The notes under the pieces are model-generated. The model had not been told where the DNA came from and did not search any database. It saw only the letters and a program-made list of their open reading frames with translations. Both the position numbers and the translations under genes were made by a program. From Gemmatimonadales bacterium (GTDB lineage: Bacteria; Gemmatimonadota; Gemmatimonadetes; Gemmatimonadales; GWC2-71-9): DNA of 64,000 bases. The DNA is taken from assembly GCA_036397755.1 (NCBI GenBank), contig DASWII010000035.1:43049-107048 (forward strand). The letters are read 5' to 3'. Below, one piece after another: positions 32,959 to 38,787 of this stretch. Positions within the stretch are counted from its first letter, which is position 1; each line of letters begins with the position of its first letter.

Positions 32959-33039
32959 GGTCACCGGGCGAGCCGACTCCAACGCATCTCGTATCCGACA
33001 AGACGCAGGCATCCTCCCACTCTCCCGCCACTTGACGTT

Positions 33040-33069
33040 TGGTATCTATATGATATCATATCGATACCA
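33040..33069. promoter_or_regulatory. 30 bp AT-rich near-perfect palindrome overlapping the putative SPFH-operon promoter
   Basis: TGGTATCTATATGAT|ATCATATCGATACCA, 14 of 15 positions paired. TTGACG (33032-33037) sits 16 nt upstream of TATCAT (33054-33059). The element lies 19 nt upstream of the SPFH start. Confidence 0.5.
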
Positions 33070-33087
33070 GCTATTCGAGAGGGTCCT

Positions 33088-33954
33088 ATGGTTCGCGAAC
33101 ACGCGCGCCGCACGGCGTCCGGCTACGTCGCATTCGTGGTGCTGTTCTTGGTCTCGGTGGGTGTGGGGCTGTGGCTGTACGCCGCGCTGCAGGCTGAGGC
33201 AACGGCCTCGATCGTCATCGCGGCGATCGCCGCGACGCTCGTAGGCATTCTCTGGGGCGGGTTCTTCATGGTGCACCCCAACGAAGCCCGGGTACTCCAG
33301 CTGTTCGGAGCCTACGCGGGAACGGAGCGGGTGACGGGACTCCGATGGGCCAATCCGTTCTTCACCAAAGCCAAAGTCTCCGTCCGCGTGCGGAATTTCG
33401 AGACCGCCAAGCTCAAGGTGAACGACCTCAATAGCAATCCGATCGAGATCGCCGCGGTCGTCGTTTGGCGCGTCGTGGACACGGCCGAAGCCTTGTTCGA
33501 GGTGGACGACTACGTCGAATACGTACACGTGCAGAGTGAGTCGGCGCTGCGGACGACCGTGACCAACTATCCCTACGACGCGTTCGAAGAGGGACAAATG
33601 TCCCTCTCGCACAACATGTTCGAGATCGCCGATCAGTTGAAGGGCGACGTACAAGACCGCCTCGCCAAGGCGGGGGTGGAGGTCGTCGAGGCACGAATCA
33701 GCCACCTCGCGTACGCACCGGAGATTGCGAGTGCAATGCTCCAGCGACAGCAGGCGAGCGCGATCATCGCCGCGCGCCAGAAGATCGTGGAGGGGGCGGT
33801 GGGTATGGTCGAGATGGCGCTGACGATGTTGGCCCAACAAGACGTCGTGCAGCTCGACGACGAGCGCAAAGCGAACATGGTCAGCAATCTGCTGGTGGTG
33901 CTGTGCGCGGACCGTAGTCCACAGCCGATCGTGAACGCGGGCTCGCTGTACTAG
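33088..33954 (+). CDS. SPFH/band-7 (stomatin/prohibitin-like) membrane protein
   Basis: Two N-terminal TM helices followed by an SPFH body (VLQLFGAY...[23 protein letters not shown]...). Confidence 0.85.
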
Positions 33955-33957
33955 GGC

Positions 33958-34155
33958 TTGCGCGACGTGACTCCACGGAAGTCGTTTCCGTTACGCATAG
34001 ACCCCAAAGTCTATGCCGCGATCGAGCGGTGGGCAGCCGACGAATTGCGCAGCGTGAACGGACAGATCGAGTTTCTCTTGAGGCAGGTGCTCTTGCGTGC
34101 CGGCCGGCTCGGCGACAACGACGTCGAGTCATTGGGGAAAAGGGGGGAATCGTGA
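33958..34155 (+). CDS. Arc/MetJ-type ribbon-helix-helix DNA-binding protein
   Basis: [37 protein letters not shown] fits the RHH pattern (beta strand followed by two helices). Start is TTG 33958 or GTG 33967. The stop overlaps the next gene's GTG. Confidence 0.6.
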
Positions 34156-35747
34156 AAGTGCTGGGATTGGCCATTATCGGGCTGTGCTGCTGGAACGCAT
34201 CGGCCGTGGCGCAGGTCGGCCAGGACGCCGCCATGATGCGGATGTACCAGGCTGAGAGTGAAGTCGGGCGGGAGTCGTTCACGCGCGACGCACGGCACTT
34301 CGAGAGTACCGTGGAGATCCCCGTGCTCCAGGCGCGTTTGATCCACCGTACGGAATTCGGCCCGGACGGGCGCTGGACCGCCTTCGAGAGTCGAGTGTAT
34401 CTGCTCGCGAACGACAGTCTGGTGGCCGAGTACTGGGCCACCGCGGCGGGGGATTCGGTGCGCTGGCGCCAGCTTCGCGGCGGGCAGGACACCTCCGGCG
34501 TGGCAGCGGGCCGGCCATCCGCCGTCGTGCCCAGCCAGACCACCGCGGTGTTCGCGGACATCGCCTATCGTGTCGCCGGACGAGATACGATCTGGGAGCT
34601 GTGGTCGCCGGAGAGCGGTGCGGTGGTGCAGGCCACGATCCGGCATGGCACGAATACGGTCGAGTTCACGCTGGGGCCGTTGCCTCTCACCGTAAAGCTC
34701 CGGCCGGACGGGCGCGTGGGGGAGATCGAGGTTCTCCCGCAACGCCTGCGGGTCGAACGGGTCGAGCCCAACTTGCCGCTCGATCCGCTCCCCGGATTGG
34801 AACGCCCGAAACCGGACTACGCGCCGCCTCCGGGCGCTCCGTACACGGCCACCGAAGTGCGCATCCCGGTCACTTCCGAGAGCGGCGACGCGTTTGAGCT
34901 GGCCGGTACGCTCACCGTGCCCACCACTGGGCGACCGCCGTTTCCTGCAGCCGTGACCATCACGGGTTCGGGCGGGCAAGACCGCGACGAGAACTTGTGG
35001 CCGCTGGTGCCGGACTACAGACCGTACGCGGAGATCGCCGACCGGCTGGCGCACGCGCGGATCGCGGTGCTGCGCGTGGACGACCGCGGTGTCGGCGCGT
35101 CCGGGGGCGGGAACAGCGCGCCGACGACGCGTGATTTCGCCGGTGACGTCAGAGCGCAGTTGGCGTGGCTTCGCGCGCGCCCGGAGATCAACGGGAAGCT
35201 GCTGGCGCTGATCGGGCACAGCGAGGGAGGCGTGATCGGTCCGATCGTGGCGGCGGAAGATCGGGAGCTTGCCGCCTTGGTCATCATGGCTGGATCATCA
35301 CAAACCGGCGAAGAGATCATCCACTACCAGGTGACGAGACCGATCGAGACCGCCCCCGGGCTCACCGACGCGCAGCGCGCGGAGCTGCGCGACTCGATCT
35401 TGGCCGAGGCGATGACGACCCTTGCAGCCGCCAACCCATGGATGCGGTACTTCTGGACCTACGATCCCCTCGTTGCCGCCCGCCAAGTGACTCAGCCGGT
35501 GCTGGTGCTGCACGGTGAGTACGACCGGCAGGTCACCGTGGAACAGGCGACGGAACTCGCGGATGCGATCCGCGAGGGTGGCAACCGGGATGTCACTGTC
35601 CGCATCTTCCCGAAGCTCAACCACCTGTTCCTCATGAGCCTCGAGGACGGGTCTCCCCACGAGTACATGGCCATCGAGGATGCGTCGCTACCGAGCGAAG
35701 TACTGGACACGATCGTCACGTGGCTGTCGACCAAACTGCGTCCGTGA
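34152..35747 (+). CDS. secreted alpha/beta hydrolase with an N-terminal non-catalytic domain
   Basis: GTGA overlap with the RHH stop. Signal [21 protein letters not shown]; GHSEGG nucleophile elbow; LHGEYDRQV and NHLF near the C-terminus. Confidence 0.75.
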
Positions 35748-35804
35748 TGCCCGACGTGACACGGACGGCGCCGGAAACGACCCGCGCCGCCCGTGTCACG
35801 TGTC

Positions 35805-36350
35805 CTACTTGCCGATGGCTTCCAACTCTCCGAGCGCTGATTCCAGCACCTCGCGCAATCGGGTACGCTTCGTCTCGTCGTCCCGATAGCGCCAGGCAAC
35901 GCGATAGGCCTGTGGCACCAGTTTCCCTACCAGTCGCGTGACCTCGGGCATCGGATCGGCAAGGAACGCATCGATTGTGTCCTCGACGCGCTCGAAGATG
36001 TCCTCCACGGTCGACCGGTGCTGGTCCAGGAACGCCTGGCCCTCCGTGGTGATCTCGTAGACCTTCTTCCCTTCGACGTCCTTCGACGCCACCAGCCCTT
36101 CGTCCTCGAGCCACTGCAGGGTTGGATACACCGACCCAGGCGAAGGCTTGTAACACCCGTGCGTGTGCTCCTCGAGCGCCTTCATCACCTCATAGCCGTG
36201 CATCGGTTTCTCTTTGAGCAGCTTGAGGATCACGTACTTGAGGTCCCCCGACTCGAACCATACCCGACGCCGTGTTCCTCTCCTGGCCCCGCGCCCGCTC
36301 CACCACCATGCGCCCGGCCCGAATCCGAAGTTCCATTCTTCCTTTTGCAT
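35805..36350 (-). CDS. PadR family transcriptional regulator (long form with C-terminal domain)
   Basis: Start at ATG 36350 after GGGGAGGTGG. Winged-helix block LKYVILKLLKEKPMHGYEVMKALEE...GSVYPTLQWLEDEGLV. Confidence 0.85.
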   Translation of the reverse strand: MQKEEWNFGFGPGAWWWSGRGARRGTRRRVWFESGDLKYVILKLLKEKPMHGYEVMKALEEHTHGCYKPSPGSVYPTLQWLEDEGLVASKDVEGKKVYEITTEGQAFLDQHRSTVEDIFERVEDTIDAFLADPMPEVTRLVGKLVPQAYRVAWRYRDDETKRTRLREVLESALGELEAIGK

Positions 36351-36365
36351 GACGCCACCTCCCCA

Positions 36366-36409
36366 GATATATCGTGCGATATTACGTACGTAATATCGCA
36401 CGATATATC
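36366..36409. promoter_or_regulatory. perfect 44 bp AT-rich palindrome (putative operator) at the padR promoter/5' UTR
   Basis: GATATATCGTGCGATATTACGT|ACGTAATATCGCACGATATATC, verified base by base. It abuts the padR SD. TTGCAC (36419-36414, minus strand) lies just upstream. Confidence 0.6.
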
Positions 36410-36445
36410 GAGAGTGCAACCCCCTCTCACCTGGGGCCCTACAAC

Positions 36446-36489
36446 GACAAATGCGGGAGGCCGGCTTCCTCCGGCCCCCCGCATTTGTC
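36446..36489 (-). terminator. long GC-rich hairpin after the PDZ gene (probable terminator of the sigma / anti-sigma / PDZ operon)
   Basis: GACAAATGCGGG-A-GGCCGG-CTTCCT-CCGGCC-C-CCCGCATTTGTC: 18 bp of stem with one mismatch. It starts 18 nt after the stop at 36507. There is no strong U-tract. Confidence 0.45.
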
Positions 36490-36506
36490 GCGGTGCCTCT
36501 CCGGAG

Positions 36507-37601
36507 CTACCGATCCCCGTCCGGCATCGCGACCGCAATCGTTTGTCGGCGTTTGTCCCGCATTATCTCCAGCGTGATCTTGTCGCCGCGTTCGTACGAC
36601 TGGAGAATCCGCATGGCGTGCGCCGGATTCCGCGGTTCGCGGCCGTCAATGCTGATGATGACGTCGCCACCCTTGAGCGGAATGTCCTCGTTCGTCGACG
36701 CCTTCACCACGAGCACACCCTTGTCGGTCCCGAAGTAGCTCGCCAGGTCCGGATTCACGATCACGAGTTGCAGATCGAGGAACGCCCCTCCGCGAAGGCG
36801 AGAGACGATGGCTGTAGCCATGTCGCCCTCTCCACCGAACCCGCGAAGAGACTCCACCACTCCGGGCTCCACTAGCTCCCACCTACGTCCTGAATCCGCC
36901 CGGCTCAGGAGTCGCCCCTCTAAACGCTCGCCGATCCCCTCGAGGCCCCGCGCGAACTCGCCAAACGCATATGCCGAGGTGCTCACATCGTCGAGCTTGC
37001 GCGGAGCGACGAGCGCCACGCGCCGGCCGCCTTCCCGGCGGTACTCGAGGCGAAGTGTGTCACCTTCTTCCGCGTTACGTACGAGGTCGACGAAGCGGCT
37101 GCCACCGTCGCGCCCGAGAACCGACGTACCGTTGACCGCCACAATGACGTCGCCCGCCTTGAGCCCCGCCTCCGCGGCCGGACCACCCGGCGTTACCGCC
37201 GCCAAAACGGCCCCGTCGCGGGCCTCCTCGCCCTCACGCGTCTCCACGATCACGCCGATCCGCGGACGATCCGAGTCGAACATCACGACCCCGGGCAGAT
37301 CTTCCGGCTCGAGGATCTCGAAGCGTCCAGGGCCGCTGCGATAGCGGAACACGGATACTCGGTCCACACCTCGAAACGCGCGCTCGGCTTCCCGCAGTCG
37401 CTCCATCGCCCGCTCGAGGTTCCTGCGCGCCTCCGGCACGTCGCTTTCGCGCAGTTGGCGTAACGCGTGGTCCAGCTCGTCGCGGGCCTCTTCCAACCGA
37501 TCGAGCGCCGCCGCGCGCTCGGCGTCGCGCTCCTGGGCGGCCACCGGAGCGGCGAGCCCGAGCGCGCAGAGTGTCAGTAACATCAATCGCCGTATCTTCA
37601 T
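36507..37601 (-). CDS. secreted tandem-PDZ domain protein (no protease domain seen)
   Basis: Start at MKIRRLMLLTLCALGLAAPVAAQ (37601). Two PDZ-like blocks: GGPAAEAGLKAGDVIVAVNG and LKGGDVIISIDG. Confidence 0.7.
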   Translation of the reverse strand: MKIRRLMLLTLCALGLAAPVAAQERDAERAAALDRLEEARDELDHALRQLRESDVPEARRNLERAMERLREAERAFRGVDRVSVFRYRSGPGRFEILEPEDLPGVVMFDSDRPRIGVIVETREGEEARDGAVLAAVTPGGPAAEAGLKAGDVIVAVNGTSVLGRDGGSRFVDLVRNAEEGDTLRLEYRREGGRRVALVAPRKLDDVSTSAYAFGEFARGLEGIGERLEGRLLSRADSGRRWELVEPGVVESLRGFGGEGDMATAIVSRLRGGAFLDLQLVIVNPDLASYFGTDKGVLVVKASTNEDIPLKGGDVIISIDGREPRNPAHAMRILQSYERGDKITLEIMRDKRRQTIAVAMPDGDR

Positions 37602-37651
37602 GGTCACTCCCCGAATGTCTTCCAACATCCGTTGATTGCAGTCCAAGAGCG

Positions 37652-38251
37652 TCAGTAGCCTACGTAGGCCACGTTGCGTACATGTGTGTTGACGAGCGTC
37701 CCCATCAGCGCGACACGCTCACGCCACAGCGCGCCCACCTGATCCGGCGCGTACCGTGCGGCCGTGGCCCGGGCAATCCCCTCATCCACGAAGGCAATCC
37801 GGTCTTCGAGATCCGCGATCGTTGCCGCCGTCATTCCCGTCATCACCCGAGGCTCTCGATCCACCGCGTGCAACAGACTCTCGAGCCGTCGTGACTCCGC
37901 CATCCACTGGGCCAATGCCTGCTGCAGATCGGCTTCGGCTCGAACCGCATCCGTAGTGAATGACTGCACCCCCACGAACACCGCCAACATCGCCGCTGCC
38001 GCCATGCCCATGATGCCGGCAGCCCGCCACGCGCCGCGCCGTCGGCCGGCAACGTGCTGCTGCCGAACTACTTCCCAGCGATCGCGTGGCGACTGCAGCG
38101 CCGGCAGTGCGCGAAGCGCGGCAACGCGCTGATGGATAAGCTCGAACTCGAACGCGCACGCTTCACACGTGTCCACGTGCTGGCGTGCCGCCACCTTCCC
38201 TTCTCTGTCGCGCAGCTCCAGGAGCTCCGCCATCGTGAGATGCCTGTACAT
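37652..38251 (-). CDS. anti-sigma factor (zf-HC2 type), single-pass membrane protein
   Basis: HVDTCEACAFEF zinc-finger motif and a central TM segment (AAGIMGMAAAAMLAVFVGV). The start shares one base with the sigma-factor stop. Confidence 0.7.
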   Translation of the reverse strand: MYRHLTMAELLELRDREGKVAARQHVDTCEACAFEFELIHQRVAALRALPALQSPRDRWEVVRQQHVAGRRRGAWRAAGIMGMAAAAMLAVFVGVQSFTTDAVRAEADLQQALAQWMAESRRLESLLHAVDREPRVMTGMTAATIADLEDRIAFVDEGIARATAARYAPDQVGALWRERVALMGTLVNTHVRNVAYVGY

Positions 38252-38787
38252 CAGGCCTCCTCGCCAAGCATGCGTCGCAACCGCACGTGTGCCCGTGAGA
38301 GTTGCGATTTGGAAAAGCTCACCGTCTTCCCCATGAGCCCGGCTATCTCCTCGTGTGTGTATCCCTCGACGTCATGCAGCCAGACCACCGCACGTGCCGT
38401 CGCGGACAACTGACTCAAGACCGTTTCCAGATCCATCGACAGTCCGGTATCAACTCCTGCCGTCCCCCACCCATCGTCACGCCACTCGTCCGTTTCGCGG
38501 TACTTCTCGTGGCGCACGCGAATCAAGGCCTTGCTCGCCGCGATCCGCTTCACCCACGCCGTCAGGCTCCCTGGAACCGACCCCCGAAACCGGCGTATGC
38601 TCTTGCAGATTTCGAGGAAGGTCTCCTGCAACGCTTCTTCGGCATCCTCCGGTGTCGGACAGATGCGTCGGGCGAGCGTGTACACCATCGACTGATAGGC
38701 GCGGTACACCGCCTCGAGCGCATCGAGATCGCCCGTCTTCGCCCGGCGGATCGCGAGCTCGTCTACCGCAACGGCAAGTTCTGGCAT
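38251..38787 (-). CDS. ECF-type RNA polymerase sigma-70 factor
   Basis: Region 2 (AEEALQETFLEICKSIRRF) and region 4 (YTHEEIAGLMGKTVSFSKSQLSRA). Confidence 0.85.
   Translation of the reverse strand: MPELAVAVDELAIRRAKTGDLDALEAVYRAYQSMVYTLARRICPTPEDAEEALQETFLEICKSIRRFRGSVPGSLTAWVKRIAASKALIRVRHEKYRETDEWRDDGWGTAGVDTGLSMDLETVLSQLSATARAVVWLHDVEGYTHEEIAGLMGKTVSFSKSQLSRAHVRLRRMLGEEA

What the first reader, a model, noticed from the sequence alone, without database searches (positions are those of the whole stretch)
36366..36409. Perfect 44 bp AT-rich palindrome abutting the padR ribosome-binding site
GATATATCGTGCGATATTACGT|ACGTAATATCGCACGATATATC is perfectly self-complementary over 44 bp. Its G+C is about 36%, in a genome of about two-thirds G+C. 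It is built of nested CGATAT/ATATCG units around an ACGTACGT core. It lies between a TTGCAC -35-like hexamer and the padR SD, so it should cover the -10 and the transcript start. It is much longer than the typical roughly 20 bp PadR operator, which suggests either two stacked dimer sites or a cruciform or RNA-hairpin element.
Basis: seen in the sequence. Interest (0 to 1): 0.55.

Follow-up and report, generated by a model that had tools for sequence, protein, structure and literature searches.

The report
PadR autoregulatory operator array
The perfect 44-bp AT-rich palindrome is real, and it is most likely the repressor-binding site through which a PadR-family regulator of a Gemmatimonadota bacterium shuts off its own promoter: an ordinary function, with a binding-site design and consensus not found in the literature searched.

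Summary
The palindrome at 36366-36409 is confirmed: 22-nt arms, no spacer, 100% complementary. The next-longest perfect palindrome in the window has 9-nt arms.

It lies on the minus strand between a TTGCAC -35-like hexamer and the ribosome-binding site of a 181-aa PadR-family gene.

It is best read as four octamers at an exact 12-bp period: GATATATC-gtgc-GATATTAC-gtac-GTAATATC-gcac-GATATATC.

At least 79 of 80 orthologous Gemmatimonadota loci carry 2-5 such units (12-mer consensus aCGATATATCGt) at 12-13-bp steps, between a TTGAC -35 and the start codon. The units are about 370-fold enriched there.

An exact two-unit pattern searched across metagenomes lands directly upstream of diverse PadR-family genes in 51 of 71 high-GC hits.

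The 12-bp step equals the half-site spacing of the solved B. subtilis PadR-DNA complex. A paralogous family shows a pair-gap-pair layout.

Best explanation: two PadR dimers bind side by side over the -10 element, the transcript start and the early leader, giving autorepression.

Perfect symmetry is lineage-specific: 97%-identical relatives already break it. No conserved hairpin or Rfam family was found.

Binding itself is inferred, not shown. Verdict: a new member of a known kind, of moderate to low interest.

The parts
36366..36409 (-). Operator array: the perfect 44-bp palindrome, made of four octamer units at a 12-bp period
   Evidence: Units are conserved upstream of orthologues.
36402..36409 (-). 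Unit 1 (GATATATC), nearest the -35. It lies in the -35/-10 spacer.
   Evidence: PWM 20.0 bits. GATATATC is the first unit in nearly all orthologues.
36390..36397 (-). Unit 2 (reads GATATTAC on the gene strand). Its first six bases, GATATT (36392-36397), are the probable -10.
   Evidence: In 28 orthologues the distance from TTG to unit 1 is 10-12 nt, which puts TTGACx, a 16-18-nt spacer and GATATT in sigma-70 geometry. This is an inference; no transcript-start data exist.
36378..36385 (-). Unit 3 (reads GTAATATC on the gene strand). It lies at or just after the inferred transcript start.
   Evidence: It is the most variable unit in orthologues (GATACAAC, GTAACATC).
36366..36373 (-). Unit 4 (GATATATC), abutting the Shine-Dalgarno
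   Evidence: It is GATATATC in most class-A orthologues.
36414..36419 (-). -35-like hexamer TTGCAC
   Evidence: Read from the sequence. Orthologues have TTGACA/TTGACT at the same offset. It is TTGCGC in the 97% relative.
36355..36362 (-). Shine-Dalgarno GGAGGTGG of padR
   Evidence: Read from the sequence. GGAGG is conserved before the ATG in orthologues.
35805..36350 (-). padR gene: 181 aa, winged helix-turn-helix plus a three-helix C-terminal domain and a disordered Gly/Trp/Arg-rich N-terminal tail
   Evidence: Pfam PF03551, E=5.6e-22. 2735 homologues at E<=1e-10. Gene callers agree on the 181-aa product. Structure model pLDDT 79.5, with residues 1-28 disordered.
36445..36490 (-). G+C-rich hairpin, terminator-like, ending the upstream sigma/anti-sigma/PDZ operon. 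It sets padR apart as its own transcription unit.
   Evidence: I2: 20-nt arms, 95% complementary, 6-nt loop. It is conserved in L081/L082. It has no clear U-tract, so the terminator function is inferred.

Best explanation
The 44-bp palindrome is the autoregulatory operator of the adjacent PadR-family repressor.

Anatomy. It is a tandem array of four near-palindromic 8-bp recognition units (consensus GATATATC; with flanks aCGATATATCGt) spaced exactly 12 bp apart.

Proposed mechanism (inferred). Each winged-helix domain of a PadR dimer contacts one unit, so one dimer covers two adjacent units, as in the 6+6+6-bp site of B. subtilis PadR. Two dimers then sit side by side: units 1+2 over the -35/-10 spacer and the -10 element, and units 3+4 over the transcript start and early leader up to the Shine-Dalgarno. 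Occupancy blocks RNA polymerase, which is autorepression. An unknown signal that lowers DNA affinity would derepress padR and any other targets.

The perfection of the palindrome in this genome is incidental. It arises because every unit approaches the same palindromic consensus, and it is not itself the selected feature.

Shown versus inferred. Shown: the sequence anatomy, its conservation, its specificity for PadR promoters, and the geometric match to a solved PadR-DNA complex. Inferred: binding by this PadR, the stoichiometry, the promoter elements and transcript start, and the direction of regulation.
For: (1) Adjacency. The array ends 3 nt before the Shine-Dalgarno of a bona fide PadR gene.

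(2) Phylogenetic footprint. 79 of 80 Gemmatimonadota orthologues (57-77% aa identity) carry 2-5 units upstream; the 80th (L068) has units displaced by a mis-called start. Successive units are 12 nt (58 cases) or 13 nt (59 cases) apart.

(3) Specificity. There are 262 units of at least 10 bits in the 170 nt upstream of padR in 80 loci. Only 26 isolated singles occur in the remaining ~466 kb, two of which are the L068 mis-call. In the 64-kb window only the four palindrome units reach 10 bits.

(4) Independent association with PadR genes. A pattern-only scan of metagenomes (CGATATATCG-N3-4-GWWATWWC) gave 120 hits. 56 lie directly upstream of a PadR-family ORF, and 51 of the 71 hits in contigs with G+C of at least 0.55 do so. 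These PadRs are only 30-60% identical to the window protein.

(5) Geometry. The B. subtilis PadR dimer recognises two 6-bp half-sites separated by 6 bp, i.e. 12 bp centre to centre, at 1 dimer per site (PMC5728393).

(6) Two units equal one site. Rv0047c-like PadRs carry exactly two units, CGATATATCG-N3-CGATATATCG. A paralogous family chosen by protein similarity alone has steps of 12, 20 and 12, i.e. pair-gap-pair.

(7) Promoter overlap. TTGACx lies at a fixed offset so that the -10 falls in unit 2 (class A, 28 loci), or TAAGAT overlaps unit 1 (class B).

(8) Purifying selection. Between the window and a relative with 97% protein identity, the 44 bp differ at 1 position, while the ~45 nt upstream differ at several positions and carry indels.

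(9) Precedent. Several PadR dimers or sites on the regulator's own promoter are documented for LmrR (PMC4534193) and cdPadR1 (PMC5050560).
Against: No binding, footprint, transcript-start or expression data exist for this protein or any close relative.

The generic promoter scan found no sigma-70-type site in 35700-36700 under its criteria. The promoter call therefore rests on TTGCAC plus the orthologue pattern.

All steps in the window family are 12-13 bp, so nothing distinguishes within-dimer from between-dimer spacing.

About a third of orthologues show three units, and some show five. A strict two-dimer model does not explain these.

Each unit is itself palindromic, which is unusual for a half-site. 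The binding register is therefore ambiguous: a dimer could be centred on a junction or on a unit.

The sequence does not resemble the classical ATGT-N8-ACAT PadR box.

No further target site was found in the 64-kb window, so the regulon is unknown.
Confidence: 0.8

Rival explanations
1. RNA or DNA hairpin element. The palindrome acts as a stem-loop in the padR leader or in read-through transcripts from the upstream operon. There it would attenuate, terminate or mask the ribosome-binding site. Alternatively it acts as a supercoiling-dependent cruciform.
For: Transcribed in full, the 81-nt region folds at -41.1 kcal/mol (z = -8.6). The extended stem pairs the -35 region with part of the Shine-Dalgarno. 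Perfect zero-spacer symmetry is what a hairpin would need. The single change in L081/L082 (A to G) would still allow a G-U pair.
Against: The long dyad is not conserved. Among 19 four-unit orthologues, 77.4% of cells pair against 75.6% after shuffling. The U2:U3 and spacer pairs fail in 10-12 of 19 sequences. Only one other of 80 loci (L067) has a long perfect palindrome. Arrays with 12/13-nt step asymmetry and with three or five units cannot form the same stem. There is no U-tract and no Rfam family. The inferred -10 lies inside the element, so the padR mRNA would carry only one arm. Any array of palindromic units folds well by construction.
Confidence: 0.06
2. The array is the operator of a different DNA-binding protein that controls padR, for example a global regulator or the paralogous PadR, rather than of the adjacent PadR.
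For: A paralogous PadR family in Gemmatimonadota carries the same GATATATC units in its own promoters, so cross-regulation is possible. Binding was not tested. The neighbouring SPFH promoter carries another conserved AT-rich palindrome, so other regulators with AT-rich sites exist in this region.
Against: The motif travels with PadR-family genes of at least three distinct subfamilies and several lineages: 51 of 71 high-GC pattern hits. That is the classic signature of autoregulation. The unit spacing fits PadR dimer geometry. The SPFH element scores below threshold with the unit matrix.
Confidence: 0.1
3. One continuous higher-order PadR assembly (a tetramer or short filament), rather than two independent dimers, reads the 12-13-bp periodic array. 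Each palindromic unit can be used in either orientation or register.
For: The steps are uniformly 12-13 bp, with no distinct inter-dimer gap in the window family. Odd unit numbers (3, 5) are common. Full-length relatives sharing the C-terminal helices have 3-5 units, whereas Rv0047c-like PadRs have 2. LmrR and cdPadR1 show multi-dimer or higher-order complexes on their own promoters.
Against: The paralogous family shows a discrete pair-gap-pair layout, which argues for dimer-sized sites. There are no oligomerisation data. The structure model is a monomer only.
Confidence: 0.25
4. A neutral or accidental palindrome, for example a recent inverted duplication, a fragment of a mobile-element end, or part of a longer coding sequence (the 204-aa TTG-start ORF 35805-36419).
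For: the ORF listing reports an ORF that runs through the palindrome. Perfect symmetry is confined to this lineage.
Against: Chance is excluded. There is a single copy in the window. The units are conserved across a phylum while their flanks diverge. Orthologues and gene callers start at the ATG after GGAGG. Array length varies by non-multiples of 3, so it is not coding.
Confidence: 0.02

Closest known systems
B. subtilis PadR and its padC operator (crystal structure of the dimer-DNA complex; PMC5728393)
   Same: The protein is a winged-helix PadR-family dimer with a C-terminal helical domain. The operator is dyad-symmetric, with half-sites 12 bp apart centre to centre, which equals the 12-bp unit step here. 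The site overlaps the promoter and acts in repression. Residues at positions expected to correspond to the canonical DNA-binding Tyr/Tyr/basic residues are invariant in the family alignment (Y53, Y75, K95). That correspondence is by homology and was not tested.
   Different: The recognition sequence differs: CNTGNA-N6-TNCANG there, GATATATC-type octamers here. That operator is one dimer site on a target gene. This one has four contiguous units on the regulator's own promoter. Sequence similarity is confined to the winged-helix domain (PDB 5x11, E=8.6e-5).
L. lactis LmrR on its own promoter (PMC4534193)
   Same: It is an autoregulated PadR-family repressor. Its own promoter is proposed to be occupied by several dimers, with a higher Hill coefficient than at the target promoter.
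   Different: LmrR is a short PadR-s2 protein. Its own-promoter motif is an incomplete ATGT/ACAT box bound weakly. No regular 12-bp array of strong units is described.
C. difficile cdPadR1 (PMC5050560)
   Same: It binds its own promoter at two inverted-repeat sites with AT-rich cores, and EMSA shows multiple stoichiometries. This is the same logic of two sites for autorepression.
   Different: The motif is TACT-N11-12-AGTA. The two sites are separated rather than contiguous. [quoted passage not shown]
M. tuberculosis Rv0047c-like PadR proteins (PDB 8jxk)
   Same: Rv0047c is the closest solved full-length fold to the window protein (Foldseek E=2e-5, 27% identity). Metagenomic Rv0047c homologues (E=2e-37) carry the same GATATATC units upstream of their genes.
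   Different: They have two units at a 13-bp step (CGATATATCG-N3-CGATATATCG) rather than 3-5. They carry a Vir_act_alpha_C C-terminal domain, which Pfam does not detect in the window protein. They lack the Gly/Trp-rich N-terminal tail. No paper found describes their operator.
C. glutamicum VanR (PadR-like; Morabbi Heravi et al. 2015, J Bacteriol 197:959). Recalled from memory: the paper could not be opened.
   Same: As I recall, the operator lies downstream of the -10 and is proposed to bind more than one dimer. PMC8358305 confirms only that the operator lies downstream of the -10 region.
   Different: The motif is different, it sits on a target operon (vanABK), and the effector (vanillate) is known.

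Membership tests
PadR-family autoregulatory operator | Lies in the promoter or 5' region of a gene encoding a PadR-family protein | tested here: met
   Pfam PF03551, E=5.6e-22, residues 41-109. The array ends 3 nt from the Shine-Dalgarno.
PadR-family autoregulatory operator | Dyad-symmetric half-sites spaced to fit a PadR dimer (about 12 bp centre to centre in the solved complex) | tested here: met
   Unit starts are 36366, 36378, 36390 and 36402, i.e. 12-bp steps. Orthologue steps are 12 or 13 nt in 117 of 168 successive pairs, and most of the rest are multiples. The reference geometry is from PMC5728393.
PadR-family autoregulatory operator | Conserved upstream of orthologous regulators (phylogenetic footprint) and rare elsewhere | tested here: met
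   79 of 80 loci carry at least 2 units. There are 262 units in 13.6 kb of upstream DNA against 26 in ~466 kb. 51 of 71 high-GC metagenome pattern hits lie next to PadR ORFs.
PadR-family autoregulatory operator | Overlaps core promoter elements or the transcript start | tested here: inconclusive
   TTGCAC, a 16-nt spacer and GATATT can be read here, and TTGACx with a 16-18-nt spacer and GATATT in 28 orthologues. The generic scan found no promoter, and no transcript-start data exist.
PadR-family autoregulatory operator | Classical PadR box ATGT-N8-ACAT | tested here: not met
   The sequence has no ATGT/ACAT pair at that spacing. The consensus here is aCGATATATCGt. The classical box is not universal in the family: the cdPadR1 motif also differs.
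PadR-family autoregulatory operator | Direct, sequence-specific binding by the cognate PadR, and repression in vivo | not testable with these tools
   Needs EMSA or footprinting and reporter assays.
Structured RNA leader / intrinsic terminator / attenuator | Stem conserved through compensatory changes | tested here: not met
   The count of structure pairs on A2 gives 77.4% paired against 75.6% shuffled, and 8 of 20 pairs fail in 10 or more of 19 sequences.
Structured RNA leader / intrinsic terminator / attenuator | U-tract after the stem, or a match to a curated RNA family | tested here: not met
   No terminator was called at the site. The best Rfam hits are miRNA-like, at 17-28 bits against gathering scores of 53-81.
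Dispersed repeat / mobile-element inverted repeat (REP, MITE, IS end) | Multiple copies in the genome, or flanking transposase or target-site duplication | tested here: not met
   There is a single occurrence in 64 kb, even with 2-3 mismatches. The neighbours are syntenic housekeeping-type genes.

The most novel reading that the evidence does not exclude
GATATATC-type 12-mers may define a previously undescribed and widespread 'PadR box', shared by at least three PadR subfamilies: the window family, a Gemmatimonadota paralogue, and actinobacterial-type Rv0047c-like proteins. In the window subfamily the protein would not bind as independent dimers. It would assemble as a phased higher-order complex along a 12-13-bp periodic array of individually palindromic units, perhaps through its distinctive C-terminal helices or its Gly/Trp/Arg-rich tail. 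In this genome the perfect AT-rich 44-bp palindrome could additionally extrude a cruciform, making padR expression sensitive to supercoiling.
Probability: 0.12. Interest if true: 0.6.

Novelty: new member of a known kind. Interest (0 to 1): 0.33.

Why it matters
The result gives a concrete, testable operator for an uncharacterised PadR subfamily that is conserved across Gemmatimonadota, a phylum with almost no experimentally studied transcription factors.

The unit matrix can now be used to scan complete genomes for the regulon.

The same GATATATC units precede Rv0047c-like PadR genes. That suggests a candidate operator for the M. tuberculosis regulator co-transcribed with ino1, which the papers found describe as uncharacterised.

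The contiguous four-unit array is also a clean natural substrate for studying how several PadR dimers cooperate on DNA.

As biology, an autorepressed repressor with two adjacent dimer sites is ordinary.

Tried and rejected
(1) Coding reading. The 204-aa TTG-start ORF through the palindrome is rejected. Orthologues and gene callers start at the ATG after GGAGG, and array length is not a multiple of 3.

(2) RNA hairpin. There is a strong fold in isolation. There is no conserved pairing, no Rfam hit and no U-tract.

(3) Further copies in the window. None were found with the 22-mer at 3 mismatches, the 14-mer at 2 mismatches, or the unit matrix. No regulon member could be named.

(4) Extra arrays within 3 kb of padR in 80 loci. 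Only isolated single units were found.

(5) Generic promoter scan. It found no hit. The promoter was inferred from orthologue alignment instead.

(6) Literature. No paper combines PadR with CGATATATCG, and the five GATATATC hits are irrelevant. The Rv0047c papers do not describe an operator. The VanR paper is not held.

(7) Curated families. NCBIfam has no equivalog; only sub-threshold generic PadR hits were returned. Pfam sees nothing in the C-terminal 70 residues.

(8) Conserved co-transcribed gene. None was found. padR is monocistronic; only loose synteny with the sigma/anti-sigma/PDZ genes and SPFH exists.

(9) Non-PadR pattern hits in metagenomes. Several are coincidental G+C-rich terminator hairpins (GGGAACCCCCGATATATC...), low-GC AT repeats, or lie at contig ends.

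Full report
OBSERVATION.

Window 36366-36409 reads GATATATCGTGCGATATTACGT|ACGTAATATCGCACGATATATC. The repeat finder reports 22-nt arms, 100% complementary, with no spacer.
- G+C is 36%, in a window whose 2-kb bins are 63-68%.
- It is by far the longest perfect palindrome in the 64 kb. The next has 9-nt arms, and 50 shuffles never exceeded 12.
- The central 22-mer has no second match even with 3 mismatches.
- The same sequence is present in independently assembled contigs from four separate metagenome samples, so it is a real genomic feature.

CONTEXT.

The neighbouring gene is on the minus strand: ATG at 36350, 181 aa, Pfam PadR, E=5.6e-22. In gene orientation the order is:
- a G+C-rich terminator-like hairpin (36445-36490) ending an upstream operon of ECF sigma factor, putative anti-sigma factor and PDZ protein;
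- TTGCAC (36414-36419);
- 4 nt;
- the palindrome;
- 3 nt;
- GGAGGTGG;
- 4 nt;
- ATG.

The gene is followed by a convergent hydrolase gene, so padR is monocistronic. A mechanically listed 204-aa ORF with a TTG start runs through the palindrome. It is not supported by the orthologues or by the gene callers.

ANATOMY.

The palindrome is four octamers at an exact 12-bp period. On the gene strand these are GATATATC, GATATTAC, GTAATATC and GATATATC, separated by GTGC, GTAC and GCAC.

COMPARATIVE EVIDENCE.

The protein belongs to a large, well-conserved Gemmatimonadota family: 2735 homologues at E<=1e-10. Eighty orthologous loci from species-level genomes were fetched, at 57-77% identity.

Almost all have a TTGAC-type -35 followed by an array of octamers that ends near the Shine-Dalgarno.
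- A position matrix built from 246 units gives the 12-mer consensus aCGATATATCGt, which is itself palindromic.
- Steps between successive units are 12 nt (58 cases) or 13 nt (59 cases), with secondary peaks at 24-26 and 37.
- 79 of 80 loci have at least 2 units, mostly 3-5. The exception, L068, is a mis-called start codon.
- There are 262 units of at least 10 bits in the 170 nt upstream of padR. Only 26 isolated singles occur in the other ~466 kb of these loci. That is about 370-fold enrichment.
- In the window itself, only the four palindrome units reach 10 bits.

A scan of metagenome contigs with a pure DNA pattern (CGATATATCG-N3-4-GWWATWWC) returned 120 hits.
- 56 lie immediately upstream of a PadR-family ORF.
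- 51 of the 71 hits in contigs with G+C of at least 0.55 do so.
- These PadRs are only 30-60% identical to the window protein.

Proteins matching only the winged-helix domain are homologues of M. tuberculosis Rv0047c (E=2e-37; they carry a Vir_act_alpha_C domain). They have exactly two units, CGATATATCG-N3-CGATATATCG.

Full-length relatives share the Gly/Trp-rich N-terminal tail and the C-terminal helices, and they have 3-5 units.

A paralogous family, also found in Gemmatimonadaceae, was retrieved by protein similarity alone. It shows steps of 12, 20 and 12 nt, which is two discrete two-unit sites.

MECHANISM.

In the crystal structure of B. subtilis PadR on DNA, one dimer recognises two 6-bp half-sites separated by 6 bp. 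That is 12 bp centre to centre (PMC5728393), and it equals the unit step here.

Together with the two-unit sites and the pair-gap-pair paralogue layout, this supports the following model: one unit per winged-helix domain, two units per dimer, and two dimers on the 44 bp.

Promoter geometry also fits.
- In 28 orthologues the TTG of the -35 lies 10-12 nt before unit 1. This gives TTGACx, a 16-18-nt spacer and GATATT, the first six bases of unit 2.
- In a second class, TTGACx, a 17-nt spacer and TAAGAT overlap the left edge of unit 1.
- In the window the reading is TTGCAC, a 16-nt spacer and GATATT. The transcript start would then fall near the palindrome centre.

Bound PadR would therefore cover the spacer, the -10, the start site and the early leader, which is the classical arrangement for autorepression. 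LmrR and cdPadR1 provide precedents for several PadR dimers or sites on the regulator's own promoter.

All of this is inference from sequence. No binding or transcript-start data exist, and the generic promoter scan found nothing by its own criteria.

IS THE PERFECT SYMMETRY FUNCTIONAL?

Probably not in itself.
- Relatives with 97% protein identity have GCGC instead of GCAC in one spacer, with no mirror change.
- Only one other locus of the 80 (L067) has a long perfect palindrome.
- On an alignment of 19 four-unit arrays, the window's hairpin is 77.4% paired, against 75.6% after shuffling partners. The outer pairs (unit 1 with unit 4) hold because both units are consensus. The unit 2:unit 3 pairs and the spacer pairs fail in about half of the sequences.
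- There is no Rfam match.
- The strong predicted RNA fold (-41 kcal/mol) is what any array of palindromic units gives, and the padR transcript probably begins inside the element.

THE PROTEIN.

The AlphaFold model has pLDDT 79.5. It shows a disordered tail (residues 1-28), a winged helix-turn-helix, and three C-terminal helices.
- The closest solved full-length fold is Rv0047c (8jxk, 27% identity). Other hits cover only the winged-helix domain.
- No NCBIfam equivalog exists.
- Y53, Y75 and K95 are invariant in the family alignment. By position in the winged-helix domain I take these to be the counterparts of the canonical PadR DNA-binding Tyr/Tyr/basic residues. This is an inference and was not tested.

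OPEN POINTS.
- Arrays with three or five units do not fit a strict two-dimer model.
- Uniform 12-13-bp steps and palindromic units leave the binding register ambiguous. They also leave room for a higher-order assembly.
- The effector and the regulon are unknown. No second site lies in the 64 kb.
- Synteny with an ECF sigma/anti-sigma/PDZ operon and an SPFH gene hints at an envelope-related role, but that is speculation.

COMPARISON AND NOVELTY.

Functionally this is a PadR autoregulatory operator with two adjacent dimer sites, which is a known kind. The new points are:
- the recognition consensus, which was not found together with PadR in the searchable literature;
- the contiguous 12-13-bp periodic architecture;
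- its conservation across a poorly studied phylum, and its sharing with Rv0047c-like regulators.

I rate it a new member of a known kind, with interest about 0.33.

Noticed in passing
window 33033-33070 (+), upstream of the SPFH/Band_7 gene 33088-33954: A second conserved AT-rich palindrome, GTATCtATATGATATCATATcGATAC, sits inside a TTGACG-N17-TATCAT promoter-like context. The element, with consensus CTATCAATATGATATCATATTGATAG, recurs through the 33 loci where an SPFH orthologue lies near padR (30 of 33 carry the GATATC core). Its period is about 10-11 bp and it scores below threshold with the padR unit matrix, so it is a different operator.
   Followed up: partly
window 33958-34155 (+): A 65-aa ORF directly after SPFH has weak ribbon-helix-helix hits (RHH_5 E=6.5e-4; ParD_like E=6e-3). 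It is a candidate binder of the SPFH-promoter palindrome. It is conserved as a 54-65-aa gene in L084, L086 and L210.
   Followed up: partly
window 36507-38787 (-): The operon of ECF sigma factor (38254-38787), putative anti-sigma factor (37655-38251, no Pfam hit) and a two-PDZ protein (36510-37646) lies upstream of padR in at least 17-24 of the 80 loci. The two are sometimes separated by an inserted M14 peptidase or DoxX gene. A functional link to padR is unknown.
   Followed up: partly
PadR protein residues 1-30 and C66 (window 35808-36350, minus strand): The N-terminal tail is disordered and rich in Gly, Trp, Phe and Arg (xFGFGPGxWxW...RRRR). It is conserved in the family and in distant full-length relatives. 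A nearly invariant Cys sits in HGCYKPSPG in the window family but is absent from the paralogue (FGGMYSPSPG). Possible roles in sensing or oligomerisation were not examined.
   Followed up: no
L211 3890-3950, L213 3930-3990 (upstream of paralogous PadR genes): A paralogous PadR family (about 39% identity to the window protein, also annotated in Gemmatimonadaceae) carries the same GATATATC units in a 12-20-12 pair-gap-pair layout. Two paralogues sharing one recognition unit raises the possibility of cross-regulation.
   Followed up: partly
L143 ~1445-1470 and L154 ~1611-1636; L106 ~466 and L155 ~541: In high-GC metagenome contigs (not Gemmatimonadota orthologues), the two-unit CGATATATCG-N3-CGATATATC(G) site also lies upstream of homologous P-loop kinase-like genes (two contigs) and homologous SAM-methyltransferase genes (two contigs). 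These are candidate regulon members of Rv0047c-like PadRs.
   Followed up: partly
L067, 100 to 47 nt upstream of padR: There is an independent long perfect palindrome (24-nt arms, 5-nt gap) built from four GATATATC units at 14/13/14-nt steps. Perfect array symmetry has therefore arisen more than once.
   Followed up: no
L108, L146, L185, L191 (metagenome contigs, G+C about 0.6): Hairpins of the form GGGAACCCCCGATATATC-n5-GATATATCGGGGGTTCCC recur between genes in one unidentified organism group. They look like terminator hairpins that match the search pattern by coincidence and are unrelated to PadR.
   Followed up: no
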